IMG/VR virus record: IMGVR_UViG_3300047666_000499 | Location: 3,493 to 67,492 of that record | DNA: 64,000 nucleotides | Strand: one strand, 5' to 3' | From: a virus | Shown: positions 28,461-37,503 of the stretch, piece by piece | How the letters are laid out: every line of letters starts with the position of its first letter | Numbering within the stretch: position 1 is the first letter of the stretch | The notes under the pieces: model-generated | Seen by the model: only the letters and a program-made list of their open reading frames with translations | Database searches by the model: none | Told to the model about the DNA's origin: nothing | Made by a program: the position numbers and the translations under genes

Positions 28461-29193
28461 TTTCAAGAACCCCTTTGTTAGACCCAGATCTGGCCAAGGA
28501 CTTCTTTACGGAGGTCCGAGAAAAGCACAGCACAACGATAAGTTTGTTGAACGTCTTATAGGCGGAACTGGTGCTGCGGACTCTTCCCAGTTTAATGTGG
28601 ATAACATCCCGGCCAAATTCAACGGCTACACACCCACGGGTAACACGGCTATAGAAAAGCTTGTGAATGGTGCCCAAAAGGAGTGGAAAGCTTGGAGAGG
28701 CGATGGCGGTAAAGAGATCATAAAAGAAGGTGACAGCAGAACAGCAGGGCGTTTGAACTATTACTGGAGAACCGGTGGTTTGAAAACTAGCGACTGGGGC
28801 GGCGATGAAGACCAATGGAGCGCCGCGTTTGTGTCCGCAATGGTTAAGCAAGCTGGAATCGGTGATTTCAAGTTTTCGGCCTCACACAGTGATTACATAC
28901 GTCAAGGTGTTAAGAATAGAAAAAATGAAACAGGTAGCTTCAAGACTTACAAACCTTCGGAGGTTACAGTGGCGGTCGGGGATATCATAGGATACCCCAG
29001 AAAAGAGGGAGTTACATACGACACCGACGAGTACTACCCAAGTCATTCTGATATTGTGGTGGAAGTTGGTGAGGGCTATGTGAAGACAATAGGCGGGAAT
29101 CTCGGTAATTCCGTTTCTACTACAAAGGTAAGCATAGGGGCTGACGGTAAGATCACTGATAAGAAGTATCACGCTGTTATAAAGTTCGACTAA
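28453..29193 (+). CDS. DUF2272/CHAP-like putative peptidoglycan hydrolase
   Basis: WSAAFVS, FSASHSDYI, GDII, SHSDIVV, IGGNLGNSV. Confidence 0.75.
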   Translation: MASFKNPFVRPRSGQGLLYGGPRKAQHNDKFVERLIGGTGAADSSQFNVDNIPAKFNGYTPTGNTAIEKLVNGAQKEWKAWRGDGGKEIIKEGDSRTAGRLNYYWRTGGLKTSDWGGDEDQWSAAFVSAMVKQAGIGDFKFSASHSDYIRQGVKNRKNETGSFKTYKPSEVTVAVGDIIGYPRKEGVTYDTDEYYPSHSDIVVEVGEGYVKTIGGNLGNSVSTTKVSIGADGKITDKKYHAVIKFD

Positions 29194-29195
29194 CC

Positions 29196-29226
29196 CTTAT
29201 TATTAGGAAAAAATTTAGTATAAATT
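29196..29226 (+). promoter_or_regulatory. Putative promoter CTTA-N19-TATAAATT
   Basis: Recurrent motif; nearly identical to the 37509 copy. Confidence 0.6.
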
Positions 29227-29249
29227 TACAAAATTTAATACACAAGCAA

Positions 29250-29549
29250 ATGAGTTTAAATAGCATATTACTGGAGCTTAGAAAGCAAGGCACACCGCCA
29301 CTAGCTGTCCATGTTAATGGTACAGTTACTTACGTGATTTACGGGGCTACAACTATTTCTTCGAGCACCGGCTACCCAGTGTTACGAATTACAGAGCCCT
29401 CTGCAACACAAGTATACTTGGACAACGGATTTTTATCGGAAGCTGATAGGGTTGCCGGATCTAACGGATCTGCGCCTGGCGCGGACGTTAAAGTAGATTA
29501 CGCTGATGCTATTCTGCTGCTTACTGACCCTTTACTAACATACGGATAA
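29250..29549 (+). CDS. Small hypothetical structural protein
   Basis: 99 aa with an A-rich start, at the head of the fibre operon. Confidence 0.55.
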   Translation: MSLNSILLELRKQGTPPLAVHVNGTVTYVIYGATTISSSTGYPVLRITEPSATQVYLDNGFLSEADRVAGSNGSAPGADVKVDYADAILLLTDPLLTYG

Positions 29550-29550
29550 T

Positions 29551-30294
29551 ATGGGATTAGTTAAATTTGATTATATATTAGGGAAACTTAGGTTAAACGA
29601 TAATCCTGCGGCTGTTGCGCCCAGCACAATAAATTTAGTTGGGTTGAGCGCCACCTACGCAGGATTACCCGCTGTAGCTGACCCATTAAACGTAGGTAAG
29701 GTTGCTTTTCTTACCCAAGATGATGGGCTTAACGAGTCAGGGTTTTACATGTCTAACGGTGTAACTTGGTCTTTTGTTAATATTGATTTAACAGCTGTGT
29801 CTAGTACTATAGACCCAACTGTCAATGATGACGGCGCAGGCGGATACTTTGTGGGCCAATCTTGGATTAATACTACAGACGGCGCGGTTTTTATATCAAC
29901 AGACATATCTACTGGGGCGGCTAATTGGCAACCAGTCACTAATAACTTGGTAGATATTAAATCGGCATATGCTTCATTTGTGCCTGCTGCAAGTTATTCA
30001 GGCAAATTCGCAATACTAGACACAAGAGATGGTGTATATCCTTCCGGATTATACCAATCTAATGGAACTATATGGGAATACAAACCATTCTACTCTCATA
30101 CATATTCCGCTGTTACTTCACCATTAATTGTTAATGATAATGCTAATGGATACTATGTAAACGATTTATGGAATGATACAGTGCTGAAGAAATCACATAT
30201 ACTGACAGACAGTACTACTGGAGCTGCTGTATGGACGGAAATAGGGTCAAGTACTATTAAAAATGAAATGCTTTGGGGCGGTTACCCGGGTTAA
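29551..30294 (+). CDS. Fibre protein with two ~100-aa tandem repeats
   Basis: Each unit has SG(F/L)Y.SNG..W...P..ND...GY.V...W......TD..TGAA.W. Confidence 0.65.
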   Translation: MGLVKFDYILGKLRLNDNPAAVAPSTINLVGLSATYAGLPAVADPLNVGKVAFLTQDDGLNESGFYMSNGVTWSFVNIDLTAVSSTIDPTVNDDGAGGYFVGQSWINTTDGAVFISTDISTGAANWQPVTNNLVDIKSAYASFVPAASYSGKFAILDTRDGVYPSGLYQSNGTIWEYKPFYSHTYSAVTSPLIVNDNANGYYVNDLWNDTVLKKSHILTDSTTGAAVWTEIGSSTIKNEMLWGGYPG

Positions 30295-30307
30295 AAATAA
30301 AAAAGAA

Positions 30308-30943
30308 ATGTATACATTATTTAGCACAAATACTTTAAAATTCAACTTAGGGGCCGCAATCACCACTAATCAACTATCTTTCTCAGCTACTTATGCTGAT
30401 ATAACGGTAGCTGACAACGTGTGGAATGGCTTAACTACTGTAAAAGGTAATTCTAATAGTACTACTTTAGTAGACTTGGTTGCTGCACCTGCTGCAACTA
30501 ATAGATTAGACATTAAAACTCTGTCTCTACACAACTTAGATACAGTTGATCAAACAATAAACATTGAATTTGATGCTACTACAGTTATTAAATTAATTCT
30601 AAAGGCTGGCTATACTTTCCTTTATAATGATGGAATAGCTAGAGTTTTAAACAACTACGGTGTAGAAGATTCTTATGTGCAATCAACTTCATTTAGTAAA
30701 GCATTTGATGCTACTACAGATTGGGGAACTGCTGCTGGAGGTTACTACACATTAACTGTGTTAGAATCTGAGCACCAAATGGGTATTGCACCTAGCTCTG
30801 TTCAGTTGTTTGATACTACTACAGGAAACTCTGTAGATGTTGATGCTGATTCATTGAGTATTAATGGTACTGGAGATATAGATATAGTAGTAGTAGAGAT
30901 ACCTGATGGTAGGTTTACTGGAAAAATAAACATTATAAAATAA
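30308..30943 (+). CDS. Fibre-associated protein
   Basis: Start reassigned to ATG 30308 (A-rich leader); C-terminal HQMG..PSSVQLFD small beta domain. Confidence 0.55.
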   Translation: MYTLFSTNTLKFNLGAAITTNQLSFSATYADITVADNVWNGLTTVKGNSNSTTLVDLVAAPAATNRLDIKTLSLHNLDTVDQTINIEFDATTVIKLILKAGYTFLYNDGIARVLNNYGVEDSYVQSTSFSKAFDATTDWGTAAGGYYTLTVLESEHQMGIAPSSVQLFDTTTGNSVDVDADSLSINGTGDIDIVVVEIPDGRFTGKINIIK

Positions 30944-30991
30944 TAAATAGCTGGGGAGACCCTGTTGGCTTCGGCCTGTTAAAATTTAATT

Positions 30992-33900
30992 ATGGCAAGA
31001 AATATAAAAGGTGATTTAAACATTACAAGAGATTTAACAGCTGGTAGAAGAATCTCAGCTGATTTAGCATTAAATGCAACTGACTGGGCAACTGGAACAG
31101 ATTACTTGGTTAACGATTTAATTATAGACGGAGGATCTATATACATCTGTAAGGCCACACACACCTCAGCTGCTGCTTTGTCTACTGATATTAATAGTTG
31201 GGATGTGGTAGGGTCTAACAAGATTGTAGATCACTTGTTTGCTACAGGTGTAGGGTATGTGTTTGATGGAGACATTATGGACACTTTAATAGTTGAATCT
31301 ACTTCAGCATCAACAGGTAACGTGCTATCTGGGTCACCAACTAATATTACGGAGGGTAAAAGTTACATACTACACTTTAAAAACACAGACTCAGTTTCAA
31401 GGTCTATCGTACTCAGTGGTGCATACAGAGCTATAGGTGAAGATACTGGTATAGCATCTTTTGATATTGTTGCTGGTTATGAAAGAGTTATAGAGTTTGT
31501 TGGGTTAGTAGGCGGTTCTATGCAAGCACTAGCGGATAGTGGGTATTCAAATGTGTCGGGTATAGATGATGTATTGGCATTGGCACAACCTCTAACTACA
31601 AGCAGGACAGTTACACTAGCTGGGTCTACATGGAATTTTAGTGGTACTTCTATTACTAAGATTAAAGATAACGCATTAAATACAGCGGTAGAGTGGCAAA
31701 AAGAACAGACCACTCATGAAACTTCTGTAAGCGGATTAACCGTGAATATTGATTTGGCTCTGGAAGGGTTCAAAGTAATAAAGACTAATGATGCCAACAC
31801 AGGGGATGTTATAATTAACGAACCTACTAATAACGGAGCTAATAAGTTAAGTATAGGTATTGTCAATGAGGATTCTGTAAGTAGGAATTACATTTTTGAT
31901 ACATCTTACAAGGTAGAAGGAGGTTCATCAGACATAGGTACTATAACATTAGCGGCAGGAGAACTAAGATATATAGAACTGCAGGCGTTAGCAATTACTT
32001 CCCCATATAAATTAGTATCTATATACGATACTGGGGCAGTAGCCTCAACAGGAGAATCAGTTCAAGAATTAACTGCTGTAGCTAATGTTATTGATTGGGA
32101 CGTATCCAATGGTGGTTACGCTTTTCATGATGTTTCAGGAGGAACAACAACGATTAATACTCCTACAAATATGGAGAAGGGTAGATTATATACTCTAAAT
32201 ATAATAAATACATTTAACAACCCTACTATAAGCTTTAGCTCTGCCTACAGGGATTCTAGTGGAAATAGTTTAGTCAGTATTTCCCCAGAAAGCGGGCAAG
32301 ACTATACTTATCTATTTGCGGCTGTATCTACATCAGAGCTACAGACTTTAAATTACTCTAGCGATTTTCAATCTGTGGTTACAGGTTCTAGTATAGACCC
32401 CTCTTTTGGACGTGTTACAACTGTTTCTGCTTCGACAGGTACAGGTGGGTCAACCTTTCCCGTGGATAACGCATTTACTAAATACAGGTCTAGCAAAAAT
32501 AGTGGTAAGACCGTGCATCTTTATATAGAAGAAACTGAAGGGATAAACAAGACTATTACTTGGGGCAATGAATACATTGGTGTAGATGGTTCACAGAAGA
32601 CTGATGACGTATTGCTTACAGGTACGACTAAGTTCTTTAGGTTAATACCTAATAAAGACAATAATAAATTCATAGTAACCGATTTAGATGCTCCTAGTGA
32701 TGGTCTAGCTCAACAAGGTATCTTGGTAGCAACACTTACTGGTAAAGGTATTTACACAGCAGAGGGTACAAATGCAGCCTCAGCTTTATATGCAGCATCA
32801 GGTTCACAAGATAGAGTTTTAGTTAGCTCTACTTTAGCAGGTGTAGGAGCAGTGATTTCTGTGCAAGCGGGTGATTACTTAAACGGTATTCTTAACGGTA
32901 CTTATACTACCCAATCTGACGGGGAATTATTAGAATTCTTTGATAATGAAGCAGGTAAATGGGCTGTTCAAGTTATTGGCGCAAGTAAAGCTAATGGTTT
33001 AGTAATTTCTACATTGACTGTACCAGATACAAACTCATCTTTACAGACTTTAACTTCGGGTACTTCAGGTACTACTTACGCTGGAGCAAGAGTAATGACT
33101 TTTGGTAATACAGGAGAAGTTACAAATGATACTACAGGAATATTTGATGTAGTAAATGATTATATTGAATTTAAAAAAGCTGGTACATATAGAATTACAG
33201 CTAGAATAGACATAGAAGACGCGGGAGGTTCGGCGACATCAGGTTATATGTTCGTGGGAGATCAAACTAATATGGTTAGAACTTCTATTCTTACGACAGA
33301 TACTAACTGGTGGGGTAGATATTCATTTGACTTTATTGAAACTTATGCAATTGGAGATAAGTTAGACTTCAGGGCAACTCATAATGCCGGTGAAAATCAC
33401 GATTTGCGGAACATGGATATTATCGTTACTGAATTACCTACTACTGAAACAGTAATGGCAGGAATGGTTATTGCTAAAACACTAGCTTATACAGAAGTTG
33501 GAGTTACAAGTCCAACTGATGCAATTATAGCTCCTTTAGATACAATAGTTAGAGAAGATGTTGCAGGAGCAATATCTACAGATGGTTCAACACTTACAGT
33601 AAATGTTACAGGTGCTTTTGATATTGATGTTCACGCACCAGTAATAGCACTTGATCCTAACATTGTAATTAAAGTTAACGGTACAGTTGTCAAAACTTAT
33701 GTTGATAGCTCGCATCAAGGTAGAATGGTTCCATTTAGACACAACTTCACAACAGGAGATACATTAACAGTTGAAGATGGTGGTGGAGCACTTGCTAATT
33801 GGAATAGTGGAGCAAATAATCCAACTACAGATGCTAATTATACTCGAATTATTTTAAAACAATCAGGGACTCAAACAGTAATTAATACTGCTGACGTAGC

Positions 33901-34195
33901 TGTAAATGACCAAGCAGCTTCAGGTTACTTTGACATAGGGACTATGAGGATGCAATTTGGAGAAGCAGCAGCAGGTACAGCAGGAGTAGTTTCTGTCACA
34001 CTTCCGATAGCAATGGGTAATGCAAATTACAACATTCAATTCCAAACAACTGGAACTAACACAGCAGGTACATTTGCTTTTACTGATCCAATAAGAACAA
34101 CTACAGGGTTTACAATCAATAAAAGATTCAATAACTCATCTACTGTAGTTGATGCGGGTGAAGGCTTTATGTGGTCAGTTAAGGGGCTTCATTAA
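30992..34195 (+). CDS. Large multidomain tail fibre / receptor-binding protein
   Basis: N-terminal CBM5/12-like WATGTDYLVNDLI..GGSIYICKATHTS, about four repeated PTN...(Y/L)xL domains, and a C-terminal MQFG...VTLPIA gp53/H-lectin-like end. Confidence 0.7.
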   Translation: MARNIKGDLNITRDLTAGRRISADLALNATDWATGTDYLVNDLIIDGGSIYICKATHTSAAALSTDINSWDVVGSNKIVDHLFATGVGYVFDGDIMDTLIVESTSASTGNVLSGSPTNITEGKSYILHFKNTDSVSRSIVLSGAYRAIGEDTGIASFDIVAGYERVIEFVGLVGGSMQALADSGYSNVSGIDDVLALAQPLTTSRTVTLAGSTWNFSGTSITKIKDNALNTAVEWQKEQTTHETSVSGLTVNIDLALEGFKVIKTNDANTGDVIINEPTNNGANKLSIGIVNEDSVSRNYIFDTSYKVEGGSSDIGTITLAAGELRYIELQALAITSPYKLVSIYDTGAVASTGESVQELTAVANVIDWDVSNGGYAFHDVSGGTTTINTPTNMEKGRLYTLNIINTFNNPTISFSSAYRDSSGNSLVSISPESGQDYTYLFAAVSTSELQTLNYSSDFQSVVTGSSIDPSFGRVTTVSASTGTGGSTFPVDNAFTKYRSSKNSGKTVHLYIEETEGINKTITWGNEYIGVDGSQKTDDVLLTGTTKFFRLIPNKDNNKFIVTDLDAPSDGLAQQGILVATLTGKGIYTAEGTNAASALYAASGSQDRVLVSSTLAGVGAVISVQAGDYLNGILNGTYTTQSDGELLEFFDNEAGKWAVQVIGASKANGLVISTLTVPDTNSSLQTLTSGTSGTTYAGARVMTFGNTGEVTNDTTGIFDVVNDYIEFKKAGTYRITARIDIEDAGGSATSGYMFVGDQTNMVRTSILTTDTNWWGRYSFDFIETYAIGDKLDFRATHNAGENHDLRNMDIIVTELPTTETVMAGMVIAKTLAYTEVGVTSPTDAIIAPLDTIVREDVAGAISTDGSTLTVNVTGAFDIDVHAPVIALDPNIVIKVNGTVVKTYVDSSHQGRMVPFRHNFTTGDTLTVEDGGGALANWNSGANNPTTDANYTRIILKQSGTQTVINTADVAVNDQAASGYFDIGTMRMQFGEAAAGTAGVVSVTLPIAMGNANYNIQFQTTGTNTAGTFAFTDPIRTTTGFTINKRFNNSSTVVDAGEGFMWSVKGLH

Positions 34196-34212
34196 AAGCA
34201 TAAAAAATAAAT

Positions 34213-34253
34213 AACACCATCCTTAATTGGGTGGTGTTTATTAACTATAATAA
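34213..34253 (+). promoter_or_regulatory. Stem-loop (terminator-like) overlapping possible promoter CTTA-N20-TATAATAA
   Basis: AACACCATCC-TTAATT-GGGTGGTGTT. Confidence 0.5.
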
Positions 34254-34264
34254 TTTATAACAAC

Positions 34265-35464
34265 ATGCCAGCAGCAATTACAAATGGTTCAGTGGTATTA
34301 AATATCGCTGTAGATTATACAGAAGTAGATTTAGCAACTTTAACTGCATTAGTAGCGGGAGCTCCCGGAACATACAGTAAAAAAGTATTTAAAGCACTAG
34401 ACACTGGCATTTACCATTATGTTGATGGACAAGATAATGTTGGTGTTTACGCAAATGTAGCTAATGCGTCACACTTTTTTGCTCCTTACAACGAGTCTTT
34501 AGATGCTGACGCTTTTCCTACATTTGACACGGCAGTAGTTTTATCAGATTTGAATTTGATAATTACAGACTTAGAAGCCTTACCAACAACTCCCCATGCA
34601 AACGCTTTTCTTACGGAAACTTTATCTCCTGGTTCTTACATAACACCCGGAGCAGCAACACTGGCAGGGACGTTAACTTTAAACGGTGGGGGCATTACAG
34701 GAGCTACATTTGTAATAAGATCACCTGCAGCTATAACACCAGCAGCATCAGTAAATATTGTTTTAACAGGAGGTACACTTCCTGAAAATGTACATTTTTT
34801 AGCGACAGGCGCAATGGCTGTAGGCGCGGGATGTACAATAAATGGTAATATAATTTGTAAGGCTGGAGCGCCATCATTAGGTGTAGGATGTACATTAGTG
34901 GGTAGAATGTTGACATTAGCGGGAGCCGCTTCATCTGCTTCAAGTAACGCAACTTTACCAACAAGTGCTGGGGTTATAGATTATAGATCTTGTGCTGATA
35001 TGATTATGTTTACTGGAACAACTCCAGCAACAAATACAGGAGGAGCAGCGTCTTACTATGAAGGGGGTATCGCTAGTCATACTGGAACTGTAACTGGGTT
35101 TGGGTTAGCAGGAGGCGTATTTACTACCTACCCTAGCGGTAGTTCAATCCCACCTCAAAACAACTACCTACCTACTGAAACATCTGGGAGCGTAACATTT
35201 GGGAATGCTAATATTGTTTATATTTTCCCAGCTGCTAATCTAGATATTACAGGGTTTGACGCGGCAGGGTTTACAAATAATCAAATAATCACTATTGTTA
35301 ATTTGGGCGCAGGAGATGCGACCTTAAAAACATTAAGCCCGAACAGTACTAATGATAATAAAATAGCAGCCAACACCGATATAGTAATAAAGCAGTACCA
35401 AAGTAAAGATGTTACTAGAATAAATGGTGTTTTGAATAAATGGATAGTAAAAGGAAATAATTAG
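34265..35464 (+). CDS. DUF3494 (IBP-1) ice-binding-like protein, circularly permuted, with fibre-type C-terminal domain
   Basis: SDL..I..DL..L, ETLSPGSY, GTLTLNGGG..GATFVI, NIVLTGG..PENVHF, GNII, LVGRML; the normally N-terminal coil (MFTG...TNTG...GGI...GTVTGF) follows these. Confidence 0.8.
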   Translation: MPAAITNGSVVLNIAVDYTEVDLATLTALVAGAPGTYSKKVFKALDTGIYHYVDGQDNVGVYANVANASHFFAPYNESLDADAFPTFDTAVVLSDLNLIITDLEALPTTPHANAFLTETLSPGSYITPGAATLAGTLTLNGGGITGATFVIRSPAAITPAASVNIVLTGGTLPENVHFLATGAMAVGAGCTINGNIICKAGAPSLGVGCTLVGRMLTLAGAASSASSNATLPTSAGVIDYRSCADMIMFTGTTPATNTGGAASYYEGGIASHTGTVTGFGLAGGVFTTYPSGSSIPPQNNYLPTETSGSVTFGNANIVYIFPAANLDITGFDAAGFTNNQIITIVNLGAGDATLKTLSPNSTNDNKIAANTDIVIKQYQSKDVTRINGVLNKWIVKGNN

Positions 35465-35467
35465 ATT

Positions 35468-35866
35468 ATGGCACGAAATTTTTATATACAAGACACCGCA
35501 ATTGCACCTTCAGTAGTTTTTGAAAACTTCCACCCTGAAGGGTATTTATTAATAGGGGTAGATAGCCCTCTGATTGATAACTTAATTCAAAAAAAATATG
35601 ATGAGTACGCGCTTGCTGGTACAAAATACTTTAAGGATACAAGAGTAATGTTTGTTAAAATGCGAATGTTATCACAAATTACAGCAGATTATATTATTGA
35701 AATAGAAGGTGCACTAAAAGATGTTAAGTCAAATCTTGTTAGCGGTGATTGGAAAACTGCGGAACTAATTTTAATAAACCATATTACAAAAGGTGCGGTG
35801 GTATCAAATGAATTATACGATAAACTTTTATTTGATTTTCAAAAATACATACTAGATAATTATTAA
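35468..35866 (+). CDS. Hypothetical helical protein (possible chaperone of the preceding fibre)
   Basis: 132 aa, very AT-rich, 3 nt after the DUF3494 gene. Confidence 0.55.
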   Translation: MARNFYIQDTAIAPSVVFENFHPEGYLLIGVDSPLIDNLIQKKYDEYALAGTKYFKDTRVMFVKMRMLSQITADYIIEIEGALKDVKSNLVSGDWKTAELILINHITKGAVVSNELYDKLLFDFQKYILDNY

Positions 35867-36001
35867 CAAATAATTATAAGCTTGGGTACTTACTAGTAAA
35901 TGGTGGTTCTTGTGTAAGAGATAAACAACAAAAAGGTGTTTAGGTTAAAGGGGGAAAAAAGGAATGATACACATAGCCTTACGAATAAAGGCCTACAGAC
36001 C

Positions 36002-36032
36002 CTTGGGGTATGATTAATAAGTGGTATAAGTG
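36002..36032 (+). promoter_or_regulatory. Putative promoter CTTG-N19-TATAAGTG
   Basis: Recurrent motif upstream of the holin-like gene. Confidence 0.55.
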
Positions 36033-36063
36033 TAAAAACAATTTCAACACAAACACAACTTAG

Positions 36064-36432
36064 ATGATTTTAGAAGCAGCAGTAACAGGTATGGATTGGG
36101 TGAGCATCATAGCTGCCGTAGGTGGAATAGGCCTAGGTGGTTTCTTGCTTAAGTTCTACAACTCTTGGAAGGACAAACGTGACAAAGACAGAGCACATGA
36201 GGACGAGCCGGAGCAATTTATTCGTAACCTGTTAACAGACCAAGTAGATGACCTTATAGCAGATGTCAAGGACATGCGCGCACGCATGGAAGAATTGTTA
36301 GTGTCTAATGCACAGTTGGATTCAGAGAACAGAGCTTTGTTGTTGGCCAACCATGAGTTGATCAATAAAAATACCGAGCTTATAGAGATGAACCAGAAGC
36401 TTTTAGACAAAATTGATAGTCTAACATTGTAA
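36064..36432 (+). CDS. Holin-like membrane protein (one TM plus coiled coil)
   Basis: WVSIIAAVGGIGLGGFLLKFY followed by a basic stretch and a heptad coiled coil. Confidence 0.5.
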   Translation: MILEAAVTGMDWVSIIAAVGGIGLGGFLLKFYNSWKDKRDKDRAHEDEPEQFIRNLLTDQVDDLIADVKDMRARMEELLVSNAQLDSENRALLLANHELINKNTELIEMNQKLLDKIDSLTL

Positions 36433-36437
36433 AATAT

Positions 36438-36632
36438 ATGGGATTTTTCTTTAAACGTAAAAAGGTTACAGCCGAAGCTATCGTCGATATACAAGCGAAG
36501 ATCAATGGCATGGCAGACTGCATAGAGGTTATGAACGCCAAAATGGATGTTGTCTTGACAAAAGAAGCTTGTGGTCAGAACTGTGCAACCTGTACGAACA
36601 AAGACTGTCCTAAGCGAACAACGTCAGCTTAA
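36438..36632 (+). CDS. Small Cys-rich protein
   Basis: 64 aa with CGQNCATCTNKDCPKR. Confidence 0.55.
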   Translation: MGFFFKRKKVTAEAIVDIQAKINGMADCIEVMNAKMDVVLTKEACGQNCATCTNKDCPKRTTSA

Positions 36633-36635
36633 CCC

Positions 36636-36666
36636 CTTGTGGTTACAATTTTTATTTCTATTTTTG
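36636..36666 (+). promoter_or_regulatory. Promoter CTTG-N19-TATTTTTG (full match to Bacteroidota TTG-N19-TAnnTTTG)
   Basis: Perfect host-type -33/-7 boxes. Confidence 0.7.
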
Positions 36667-36703
36667 ACGAAGCAATATTGCGGATAACACAATAGATTTG
36701 AAT

Positions 36704-36910
36704 ATGACAGCAGACGAACAATTGGCTTTACCACTCAACATCACTTTAACAGTGGCTGAGGTAAACGCTATAATCAACGCTATGGACGAGATGGTACACA
36801 GAGTTGCCAGACCGATTATTGATTCCCTAAAGGCGCAAGCACAACCGCAGATACACAAAGCTGTGGAGGGGGCCAACGCTAAACCCAAGGTTGTAGAACC
36901 AGAATTATGA
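36704..36910 (+). CDS. Small hypothetical protein
   Basis: ATG 36704; ATGA overlap with the next gene. Confidence 0.55.
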   Translation: MTADEQLALPLNITLTVAEVNAIINAMDEMVHRVARPIIDSLKAQAQPQIHKAVEGANAKPKVVEPEL

Positions 36911-37503
36911 AGAACACATTAATAAAGATATCAACAGGTATAGTGCTAGGAGTTTTCTTGGTGCTATTCTTCCGTTGTGACCCTAAATGCCCAGAGGTAA
37001 GCACTAAGACTGCGACCGTGGTGGAAACAGATACTGTTTCAACGCGGGACATACAGATACAGTACGTACCGGGGCCAGAAAGGATTGTTTACATCACCGA
37101 GCCTGTTTACATAGAAGTGACAGAGAGCGGTGTATACCAAGAATTTAAGATCGATGAAGAGGACTTGCAAGCCACGGCCAGCATGATTTCCGTTGACACA
37201 GTTTCTGATTTCAAGCTGGACTACTCAGTCACAGCAAAAGAGACTTTGATTACAGATACCATTACAATCAACAACACTGTTACACACACAATCACCAACA
37301 CGATAGAGGCTAAGAGGAAAATGAATTTGTACTTAGGTACTAATGTCATATTCTCACCTAACAGCTTCAACGGGGTCAACTTTAATGTTGGCTTGAAGAC
37401 CAGAAAGGACTTCGTTTTTGAGGTGGGTTACAACGCCAGTTTCACAGGCGGGGACAGTTACGAAGCGGGTATAAAAATACCTCTCTTCCATAAGAAGAAA
37501 TAA
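36907..37503 (+). CDS. Spanin-like membrane protein
   Basis: N-terminal TM ending FFRC, a Thr/Val-rich linker, and C-terminal amphipathic beta strands. Confidence 0.5.
   Translation: MKNTLIKISTGIVLGVFLVLFFRCDPKCPEVSTKTATVVETDTVSTRDIQIQYVPGPERIVYITEPVYIEVTESGVYQEFKIDEEDLQATASMISVDTVSDFKLDYSVTAKETLITDTITINNTVTHTITNTIEAKRKMNLYLGTNVIFSPNSFNGVNFNVGLKTRKDFVFEVGYNASFTGGDSYEAGIKIPLFHKKK

What the first reader, a model, noticed from the sequence alone, without database searches (positions are those of the whole stretch)
34265..35464. Circularly permuted DUF3494 ice-binding domain built into a phage fibre protein
Seen: the DUF3494 helix and beta-solenoid motifs (SDLNLIITDLEAL, ETLSPGSY, TLTLNGGG, NVHF, LVGRML) run from about 34529 to 34915. 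The segment that normally starts the domain (DYRSCADMIMFTG..TNTG...GGIAS.TGTVTGF, about 34979-35101) comes after them. Known: canonical IBP-1/DUF3494 is a discontinuous solenoid whose first coil packs beside the last, and Bacteroidota carry tandem DUF3494 proteins. Inference: the phage captured a window spanning two tandem host domains, giving a continuous permuted solenoid. That solenoid is fused to a fibre-type C-terminal domain (ITGF...IVNLG...KWIV) inside the fibre block. Virions may bind ice or be protected from freezing, which would keep them with ice-associated flavobacterial hosts.
Basis: partly seen in the sequence, partly recalled or inferred. Interest (0 to 1): 0.9.

Follow-up and report, generated by a model that had tools for sequence, protein, structure and literature searches.

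The report
Rearranged ice-binding fold on phage fibre
A phage found in ice samples has a probable three-part fibre protein carrying the microbial ice-binding fold with its first coil moved to the end; whether it grips ice or the host cell is untested.

Summary
ORF 34265-35464 (399 aa) matches Pfam PF11999 over profile positions 62-199 only. The segment after the solenoid (residues 238-290) is homologous to the canonical first coil. A profile of that segment hit 205 sites in other DUF3494 proteins, and 171 of them lie just upstream of a helix+solenoid unit. Controls gave 0 hits in shuffled and 1 in reversed copies.

The family profile aligns without a break across the domain boundary of the two-domain antifreeze protein IBPv, PDB 5UYT. 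A confident AlphaFold model (pLDDT 86) has the displaced coil continuing the beta-helix.

The rearrangement is not this phage's invention. It is shared with many Bacteroidota chromosomal genes and other viral contigs. This scan has noted it before on other phage DNA.

The C-terminal domain is phage-fibre-like and is predicted to form a trimer. All three sequencing runs that hold the DNA are labelled ice metagenome. Positions matching the IBPv ice-binding face keep small Ala/Ser/Thr residues.

Ice binding and virion location remain untested. Verdict: a new variant of a known kind, moderately to highly interesting.

The parts
34265..35464 (+). Whole gene, 399 codons plus stop
   Evidence: ORF list and translation. 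A contig of a second ice-metagenome run, X2, covers 34211-35765 with 0 differences.
34265..34495 (+). N-terminal variable part, residues 1-77. Presumed adaptor to the virion (inferred).
   Evidence: It is not conserved among the 11 close homologues, where the stretch before the helix varies from about 10 to about 210 residues. It has no PF11999 match and no first-coil profile match. It was poorly modelled.
34496..34942 (+). Long alpha-helix (residues 89-105, 34529-34579) followed by the solenoid coils that match canonical coils 2-6 (residues 78-226)
34976..35134 (+). Displaced first coil, residues 238-290. It is homologous to the N-terminal coil of canonical DUF3494 but placed after the last coil.
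34502..35155 (+). The transferable permuted DUF3494 module as a whole, residues 80-297
   Evidence: hhalign of A1 against A3 (bacterial-type permuted class): probability 100, E 6e-53, 43% identity. The alignment covers exactly residues 80-297 and stops at both flanks.
35150..35461 (+). C-terminal beta-rich domain, residues 296-399. The predicted trimer interface lies in residues 316-399 (35210-35461).
   Evidence: Atlas structure matches to mostly viral clusters, TM 0.79-0.84, including gp53-like tail-fibre C-terminal and PTL_trimer clusters. Homotrimer model ipSAE 0.64 against a best control of 0.00, with all confident contacts at model residues 239-322 apart from model residue 1. No Pfam, PHROG or PDB sequence match.
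35468..35866 (+). Downstream 132-aa gene, a conserved neighbour. It may be an assembly factor (inferred only).
   Evidence: The gene after the homologue in metagenome locus L001 is 25% identical, E 6e-9. There it is followed by an Amidase_2 lysin. No family or Atlas lead.
30992..34195 (+). Upstream 1067-aa repetitive protein of the same low-GC block. Presumed fibre (inferred).
   Evidence: GC is 0.37 over 30-36 kb against 0.42-0.48 elsewhere. Only a weak CBM_5_12 match below cut-off. No PHROG hit. One short tblastn match to a hypothetical phage protein.

Best explanation
What the gene encodes (supported in silico, about 0.85). It is a late structural protein of a crAss-like phage of Bacteroidota. 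It has three parts: a variable N-terminal adaptor, a circularly permuted IBP-1/DUF3494 beta-solenoid, and a C-terminal domain that forms a trimer.

In the canonical fold, the chain makes coil 1, runs up a long helix, and stacks coils 2-6 back down until the last coil lies on coil 1. Here the chain starts with the helix, stacks the coils, and ends with the coil-1 equivalent. The solenoid is therefore continuous.

Inferred from the canonical coil-1-to-helix connection: the module's two ends lie side by side. This is what lets it be spliced as a cassette between other domains.

Inferred origin: the order is what results from cutting a tandem DUF3494 array one coil out of register (duplication then truncation). 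It arose before this phage family.

Proposed function (about 0.4-0.45). Each fibre displays three free solenoids. Their flat face keeps the row of small Ala residues and the neighbouring Ser/Thr row that form the ice-binding site of IBPv. I propose that this face orders ice-like water and binds ice. Three-fold display would add avidity. Virions in ice would then stick to ice surfaces or brine-channel walls beside ice-associated Bacteroidota hosts, or be buffered against recrystallising ice.
For: Permutation:
- Pfam covers profile positions 62-199 only.
- Several homologues have only 10-15 residues before the helix, so there is no room for an upstream coil.
- The C1 profile finds canonical first coils, 171 of 205 hits, with 0 and 1 hits in the controls.
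- There is a contiguous alignment across the 5uyt domain boundary.

Fold:
- AlphaFold model on a 44-row alignment: pLDDT 86, residues 87-292 at 92 or more.

Canonical topology: abstract of PMC11645318. In PMC5673226 the IBPv ice-binding row is listed Ala41-Ala212-Ala193-Leu174-Ala147, so coil 1 lies next to the last coil.

Phage and structural role:
- Portal and major head PHROG hits, with all genes on one strand.
- The portal is related to crAss-like, Flavobacterium, Cellulophaga and Bacteroides phages at 20-31% identity.
- G000 is a virus record.
- No signal-peptide-like N-terminus in the family, judged by eye.
- The C-terminal domain resembles phage-fibre C-terminal domains.
- Trimer model score 0.64 against best control 0.00. 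That mark was reached by 20 of 30 solved homo-pairs and 1 of 23 single chains. The runs agree in at least 75% of contacts and the partner pLDDT is at least 80.

Ice:
- All 3 of 3 listed runs that hold the DNA are labelled ice metagenome. One may be the source.
- The gene is identical in X2.
- The best solved relative is a proven antifreeze protein.
- Positions equivalent to the ice-binding site are A156, A183, A202, A221 and P254 (row 1) and T158, A185, S204, S223 and T256 (row 2). Row 1 is Ala in 11-12 of the 12 family members for the four solenoid coils.
Against: - Pfam itself does not see the displaced coil.
The good model rests on an alignment that I chose from permuted proteins only.
- I had no coordinates, so the coil was not superposed on canonical coil 1. 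Its position is inferred from aligned ranges.
- No PHROG or Pfam tail-fibre family matches this gene or its neighbours. The virion role therefore rests on position, the C-terminal domain and a predicted trimer.
- The trimer job used my own alignment and three copies, unlike its calibration.
- The small residues on the putative ice face are just as conserved across the wider permuted class (38-40 of 44 rows). PMC5673226 says turn regions are conserved in the fold for structural reasons. They are therefore not diagnostic of ice binding.
- DUF3494 occurs in hundreds of bacteria of unknown function and may bind other surfaces (PMC11645318 introduction).
- Unchecked notes of this scan report the same permuted module on soil-type and freshwater phages.
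- The three runs all date from 2024 and may be one campaign.
- The default job of a fibre is host recognition.
Confidence: 0.45

Rival explanations
1. The anatomy is the same, but the solenoid is the receptor-binding part of the fibre. Its conserved flat face binds a host surface polymer (capsule, EPS or glycan) of a Bacteroidota host. The link with ice is only that the host lives there.
For: - The gene lies at the end of the structural block. In locus L001 the homologue is followed by a small conserved gene and a lysin, which is the usual place of receptor-binding proteins.
- Variable N-termini on a conserved distal part are the usual pattern of swapped receptor-binding modules.
- The permuted module is widespread in Bacteroidota genomes of many habitats.
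- PMC11645318 suggests non-ice surfaces for many DUF3494 proteins.
Against: - No catalytic or sugar-binding family matches.
- The face that would bind is nearly invariant in family members that are 56-71% identical. Receptor faces usually vary.
- All three listed holders are ice metagenomes.
- The best solved relatives are all ice binders.
Confidence: 0.35
2. It is an auxiliary gene. It is made in the infected cell and released to protect the host, and so the phage yield, from freezing. This is how PF11999 genes on Arctic viral contigs have been read.
For: PMC11515562 (passages read) reports three PF11999 genes on viral contigs and reads them as host cryoprotection. The DNA occurs in ice metagenomes.
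Against: - No signal-peptide-like N-terminus in any of the complete family members, by eye. No predictor was run. Bacterial IBPs such as IBPv are secreted: its signal peptide was removed for expression.
- It has a phage-fibre-like trimerising C-terminal domain.
- It sits within a one-strand block of structural genes.
Confidence: 0.07
3. It is a decaying fragment of a tandem DUF3494 gene with no function of its own.
For: The order is collinear with an off-register cut of a tandem array.
Against: - The frame is open.
- There are 11 close homologues conserved from residue 78 to the last residue.
- The sequence is identical in a second run.
- The model is confident.
- A large clade shares the same order.
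Confidence: 0.03

Closest known systems
IBPv, the two-domain DUF3494 antifreeze protein of a Flavobacteriaceae isolate (PDB 5UYT; PMC5673226)
   Different: IBPv has two complete units in canonical order and is secreted. The phage protein has one unit that starts at the helix and ends with the first coil. It has no signal peptide and carries a trimerising C-terminal domain.
Single-domain IBP-1/DUF3494 ice-binding proteins with solved structures (AnpIBP 7BWX/7BWY, EfcIBP 6EIO, ColAFP 3WP9, FfIBP 4NU2, SfIBP_1 6BG8, LeIBP 3UYU, TisAFP 3VN3)
   Different: Their chains end where model residue ~157-160 lies. Their first coil precedes the helix, whereas here it follows the last coil.
Non-canonical DUF3494 proteins (Raymond 2024, PMC11645318; abstract, introduction and methods read)
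   Same: They are a variation on the DUF3494 theme that standard domain models recognise poorly or not at all.
   Different: [quoted passage not shown] It is not a change of order, and it is bacterial only. In the parts I read there is no permutation and no phage.
PF11999 'ice-binding-like' auxiliary genes on Arctic viral contigs (PMC11515562; passages read)
   Same: It is the same Pfam family on a viral contig from a cold habitat.
   Different: They are read there as host-protective metabolic genes. No fibre context or permutation appears in the passages read. The supplements, which may list the genes, were closed.
The permuted DUF3494 class of Bacteroidota and other viral contigs found here (A3; loci L004-L056 and others)
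   Same: It has the same module in the same order, 43% identity by profile over residues 80-297. It forms a common clade that the data do not reject.
   Different: The flanks differ. Those proteins have conserved segments before the helix and after the displaced coil. Often they also have a signal peptide, collagen repeats or N-terminal repeats. The phage family has a short adaptor and its own C-terminal domain, which my CT profile found only in 17 proteins of the 162.
Phage tailspikes with parallel beta-helix bodies (for example CBA120 TSP2/TSP3, cyanophage Pam1 tailspike)
   Different: There is no sequence relation. Those helices pack into the trimer axis and are often enzymes. Here the predicted contacts lie only in the C-terminal domain.

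Membership tests
Pfam PF11999 Ice_binding (DUF3494, IBP-1 fold) | Score above the curated cut-off | tested here: met
   57.2 bits against 28.7, E 2.4e-15. Also 60 bits in the genome search.
Pfam PF11999 Ice_binding (DUF3494, IBP-1 fold) | Right-handed triangular beta-solenoid with a long helix alongside | tested here: met
Pfam PF11999 Ice_binding (DUF3494, IBP-1 fold) | Canonical order: first coil, then helix, then remaining coils | tested here: not met
   There is no match to profile positions 1-61 upstream. The first-coil homologue lies at residues 238-290, after the last coil.
Pfam PF11999 Ice_binding (DUF3494, IBP-1 fold) | Complete set of coils, including the one that caps the last coil | tested here: met
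   The C1 segment is present, conserved and modelled as a continuation of the helix. Its exact superposition on coil 1 was not computed.
Functional ice-binding / antifreeze proteins | Flat face with aligned small and hydroxyl residues | tested here: inconclusive
   Positions equivalent to the two IBPv rows are Ala/Pro and Thr/Ser/Ala and are conserved. They are equally conserved in the wider class and may be structural.
Functional ice-binding / antifreeze proteins | Thermal hysteresis, recrystallisation inhibition or ice shaping | not testable with these tools
   This needs recombinant protein.
Phage tail fibre / tailspike proteins | Sequence membership in a known fibre family | tested here: inconclusive
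   No PHROG or Pfam fibre family at the thresholds used. The Atlas gives leads only: gp53-like_C, PTL_trimer and Phage_depo_C clusters.
Phage tail fibre / tailspike proteins | Homotrimer | tested here: met
   Prediction only: ipSAE 0.64 against best control 0.00, with the interface in residues 316-399.
Phage tail fibre / tailspike proteins | Gene within the virion structural module; protein in virions | tested here: inconclusive
   It is on the same strand and downstream of the portal and major head genes, and upstream of the giant proteins. The neighbours are unannotated.
Secreted host-protective IBP (auxiliary gene) | N-terminal signal peptide | tested here: not met
   By eye only: none of the complete N-termini has a basic-then-hydrophobic leader, and some leave only 10-15 residues before the helix. 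No predictor was run.

The most novel reading that the evidence does not exclude
Virions of an ice-dwelling crAss-like phage carry fibres that each display three permuted ice-binding solenoids, and they physically attach to ice. This would make it a virus that uses ice itself as a docking surface to stay in brine channels next to ice-attached Bacteroidota hosts. The permuted cassette, whose two ends lie side by side, would be the form in which the ice-binding fold travels between bacterial surface proteins and phage appendages.
Probability: 0.3. Interest if true: 0.85.

Novelty: new variant of a known kind. Interest (0 to 1): 0.68.

Why it matters
The IBP-1 fold is the most common microbial ice-binding fold, and it has been described as nearly invariant in chain order. 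I found no paper on a natural circular permutant. Here such a permutant is widespread in the fetched loci: 55 of 78 genome loci and 11 of 28 viral loci. Standard domain models see only part of it, so surveys of ice-binding genes in cold microbiomes and viromes probably misjudge these proteins.

The permuted form is inferred to have its two ends adjacent. That would explain how the fold can be spliced into fibres and other proteins.

This phage occurs in ice metagenomes. If the domain binds ice on a virion, that would be a new kind of virus-environment interaction. It can be tested directly with one recombinant protein, and the trivalent, self-assembling scaffold may be useful for cryopreservation work.

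Tried and rejected
- Pfam on the C-terminal part alone (residues 222-399) and the N-terminal part alone (1-86): no PF11999 hit at E <= 10.
- First AlphaFold job on the 12-row alignment: pLDDT 55, with the displaced coil unmodelled. It was superseded by the 44-row job.
- tblastn of the protein against 50,697 phage records: no match.
- IMG/VR and species genomes searched with the close family A1: no relatives. The metagenome scan gave 2 loci.
- PHROGs on this gene and on 4 neighbours: one unknown-function hit only. tblastn of the 1067-aa and 247-aa neighbours: one short match and none.
- PDB sequence search with the C-terminal domain: nothing below E 0.1. The fold lists are filled by the solenoid, so the C-terminal fold was not tested against PDB.
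- Atlas on the 132-aa neighbour: no usable lead.
- N-terminal 86 residues against the 247-aa upstream protein: no significant similarity.
- Neighbours of two other viral permuted genes (L091, L094): not clearly tail modules. One weak baseplate hit and a ribonucleotide reductase. I therefore make no claim that those are fibres.
- For locus L008, Pfam aligned profile positions 9-203 although my profiles call it helix-first. An upstream coil-like stretch in that subgroup is not excluded.
- The sigma-70 and terminator scan of 29000-37000 found nothing above shuffles.
- No RNA holder is listed for the stretch.
- The FastTree and quick IQ-TREE trees rest on about 140 columns and leave many forks open. 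For the AU test I used 45 of the 232 canonical units, drawn at random, plus all 42 permuted units of at least 110 profile positions.
- Supplementary files of PMC11515562 and PMC11645318 were not seen. They may list viral PF11999 genes or structures that bear on novelty.
Full report
THE GENE. ORF 34265..35464 (+) encodes 399 residues. Pfam PF11999 (Ice_binding, DUF3494) matches at E 2.4e-15, 57.2 bits against a cut-off of 28.7. The match covers residues 86-221 and profile positions 62-199 of 208. The first ~60 profile positions, which are the first coil of the fold, have no counterpart upstream. The N-terminal 86 residues alone give no PF11999 hit.

IS THE DOWNSTREAM SEGMENT THE MISSING COIL? 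Pfam alone says nothing: residues 222-399 gave no family at E <= 10. More sensitive profiles settle the question.
- The word-indexed protein search gave 11 close homologues, 56-71% identical. Aligned as A1, they are conserved from residue ~78 to the C-terminus, with variable N-termini.
- The A1 profile against PDB sequences finds 16 chains at E <= 1, all DUF3494 proteins. The best is 5uyt_A (IBPv, a two-domain antifreeze protein) at E 1.5e-41.
- Profile positions 39-240 align in one piece with 5uyt 57-267. That is the helix and solenoid of domain A continuing into the first coil of domain B.
- Positions 195-235 also match the first coil of domain A. This match is weak, i-E 1.5.
- I then built three profiles from A1: helix+solenoid (HS, residues 78-226), post-solenoid segment (C1, 236-290) and C-terminal domain (CT, 296-399). 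I ran them on the 162 proteins held.
- Outside the training family, C1 hit 205 sites. Of these, 171 lie within 60 residues upstream of an HS unit, so they are canonical first coils. The other 34 have no HS after them.
- Shuffled copies gave 0 hits and reversed copies gave 1.
- Several family members have only 10-15 residues before the helix. They cannot hold an upstream coil.

The domain is therefore circularly permuted at the sequence level.

STRUCTURE. [quoted passage not shown] In PMC5673226 the IBPv ice-binding row is listed Ala41-Ala212-Ala193-Leu174-Ala147, which again puts coil 1 beside the last coil.

A first AlphaFold run on 12 sequences left residues 220-315 unmodelled. A second run used residues 78-399 with 43 other helix-first proteins (A2). 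It gave pLDDT 86 and pTM 0.68, with protein residues 87-292 at 92 or more.
- Foldseek lists only IBP structures in the rows shown at ranks 1-31.

So the displaced coil is modelled as a continuation of the same solenoid. I could not superpose it on canonical coil 1 because coordinates are not exposed. That step is inferred.

ORIGIN. The order equals an off-register window over a tandem array, and such arrays abound. Of the 150 proteins outside the family, 68 start C1-HS and many repeat it. But the event is not this phage's.
- 33 of the 150 are single-unit helix-first proteins.
- The permuted module, residues 80-297, aligns by hhalign with a class that carries other flanks at 43% identity, E 6e-53. 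The alignment stops at both module ends.
- That class was found in 167 genome stretches. Of the 78 loci kept, 55 hold 99 helix-first frames, and 54 of those 55 have Bacteroidota titles. Several are cold taxa such as Aequorivita antarctica, Bizionia saleffrena, glacier Flavobacterium strains and a sea-ice MAG.
- In A. antarctica the gene sits among ordinary chromosomal genes.
- In IMG/VR, 11 of 28 DUF3494 loci are helix-first, 3 are canonical, and 14 show no first coil with my profile.
- In a quick IQ-TREE tree (42 permuted units plus 45 of 232 canonical units drawn at random), the window lies in a set of 19 rows, all permuted, with SH-aLRT 97.
- Holding all 42 permuted units together gives a better likelihood than the free search found, p-AU 0.70. 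FastTree on all 274 units needs 8 changes of the label.

One or a few old origins fit best. The direction of transfer is open.

IS IT A FIBRE PROTEIN OF A PHAGE?
- The window is 64 kb of a 67.5-kb virus record, which CheckV estimates at 38% complete.
- It has portal and major-head PHROG hits, and all long ORFs lie on one strand.
- The portal is 20-31% identical to portals of crAss-like, Flavobacterium, Cellulophaga and Bacteroides phages. A Bacteroidota host is therefore inferred.
- The gene lies in a low-GC block, 0.37 against 0.42-0.48. The block also holds a 1067-aa repetitive protein and a 132-aa gene.
- The homologue of that 132-aa gene follows the DUF3494 homologue in metagenome locus L001, and a lysin comes next.
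- No known fibre family matches.
- The C-terminal domain resembles mostly viral Atlas clusters, including tail-fibre C-terminal ones, at TM 0.79-0.84. These are leads only.
- A three-copy model passed. ipSAE was 0.64, 0.65 and 0.44 in the three runs, against a best control of 0.00.
- That mark was reached by 20 of 30 solved homo-pairs and 1 of 23 single chains. The runs agree in at least 75% of contacts and the partner pLDDT is at least 80. My own alignment and three copies differ from the calibration.
- No family member has a signal-peptide-like start (by eye).

Together this favours a trimeric virion appendage with three free solenoids. It is not shown.

WHAT DOES IT BIND? For ice:
- All three listed runs that hold the stretch are labelled ice metagenome. 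X1 may be the source. X2 holds 0.96 of the sampled words and X3 holds 0.42. They carry three study codes, all from 2024.
- A contig of X2 covers the whole gene without a difference.
- The nearest solved relatives are all proven ice binders.
- I mapped the two IBPv ice-site rows through the alignment. The Cys positions show that paper numbering is the SEQRES index plus 21.
- The mapping gives A156, A183, A202, A221 and P254 for the small-residue row, and T158, A185, S204, S223 and T256 for the hydroxyl row. Ala is kept in 11-12 of 12 family members in the four solenoid coils.
- None has a bulky residue such as the Leu174 that weakens IBPv domain A.

Against ice:
- The same positions are as conserved in the wider class, 38-40 of 44 rows. 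Turn regions of the fold are conserved for structural reasons.
- Many DUF3494 proteins occur outside ice with unknown ligands.
- A fibre's usual task is host binding.

I put ice binding as the biological role at about 0.4-0.45, host-surface binding at about 0.35, and a secreted host-protective role at below 0.1.

WHAT IS KNOWN.
- PF11999 genes on viral contigs from the Arctic have been reported as auxiliary genes for host cryoprotection (PMC11515562, passages read). Giant-virus DUF3494 proteins appear in BFVD.
- Raymond 2024 describes non-canonical DUF3494 proteins with extra coils, not a changed order (abstract, introduction and methods read).
- Full-text searches returned no paper on a permuted DUF3494. 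I searched DUF3494 with 'permut', ice-binding with 'circularly permuted', and DUF3494 or ice-binding protein with 'circular permutation'.
- DUF3494 with 'phage' returned one unrelated preprint. These cover only the held library.
- Within this scan the same rearrangement has been noted before on other DNA: 14 findings in at least 9 genomes. They are on fibre tips inside a TNF/C1q-like head and on tail sheaths (unchecked notes).
- My own data agree in part. The wider class has conserved segments on both sides of the module.
- This gene differs in three ways: the module is not inserted in such a head, it is followed by its own trimerising domain, and the phage occurs in ice.

VERDICT. It is a new variant of a known kind.

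Noticed in passing
loci L004-L063 (genome contigs), e.g. L017:5923-7257: Helix-first (permuted) DUF3494 genes are common in Bacteroidota genomes: 99 frames in 55 of 78 fetched loci, often two or more per locus. Some have signal peptides, collagen repeats or a T9SS sorting domain next door. Conserved segments lie before the helix and after the displaced coil, which suggests the module is inserted in another beta domain.
   Followed up: partly
loci L082-L095 (IMG/VR): 11 of 28 viral contigs with a DUF3494 relative have the helix-first order, and L091 has two such genes in tandem. Their neighbours are not clearly tail genes: a ribonucleotide reductase and one weak baseplate hit.
   Followed up: partly
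window 30000-36000: GC falls to 0.37 over the 226-aa, 1067-aa, DUF3494 and 132-aa genes, against 0.42-0.48 elsewhere. This suggests the block was acquired as a cassette from a lower-GC source.
   Followed up: no
window 32960-33440 and 34204-34435: Contigs of the three ice-metagenome runs carry many variant letters in the C-terminal third of the 1067-aa gene. They also have loose ends at 34204, 34244, 34403 and 34435, at the start of the DUF3494 gene. This looks like strain variants or module swapping at the fibre genes.
   Followed up: no
window 34213-34262: A hairpin (arms 34213-34219 and 34232-34238, seen by eye) follows the 1067-aa gene, but the terminator scan did not call it.
   Followed up: partly
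window 34889-34891 and 34991-34993 (Cys209, Cys243): Cys209 is invariant and Cys243 nearly invariant in the close family. Cys243 lies two residues from the position of IBPv Cys244, which forms a disulfide tying the first coil of domain B to its C-terminal end. A disulfide pinning the displaced coil to the solenoid is possible but untested.
   Followed up: no
window 35468-35866 and L001:3792-4193: A ~132-aa gene of no known family follows the DUF3494 gene in both loci (25% identity, E 6e-9). In L001 an Amidase_2 lysin comes next. It may be a fibre assembly factor.
   Followed up: partly
window 36064-36432: A 122-aa protein with a hydrophobic N-terminal segment followed by a long charged helical region, seen by eye. 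It looks holin-like or spanin-like, and it lies just after the fibre block.
   Followed up: no
window 43052-64000: Two giant ORFs, 3404 aa and more than 3569 aa (open at the window end). These are typical of crAss-like and N4-like phages that package very large proteins.
   Followed up: no
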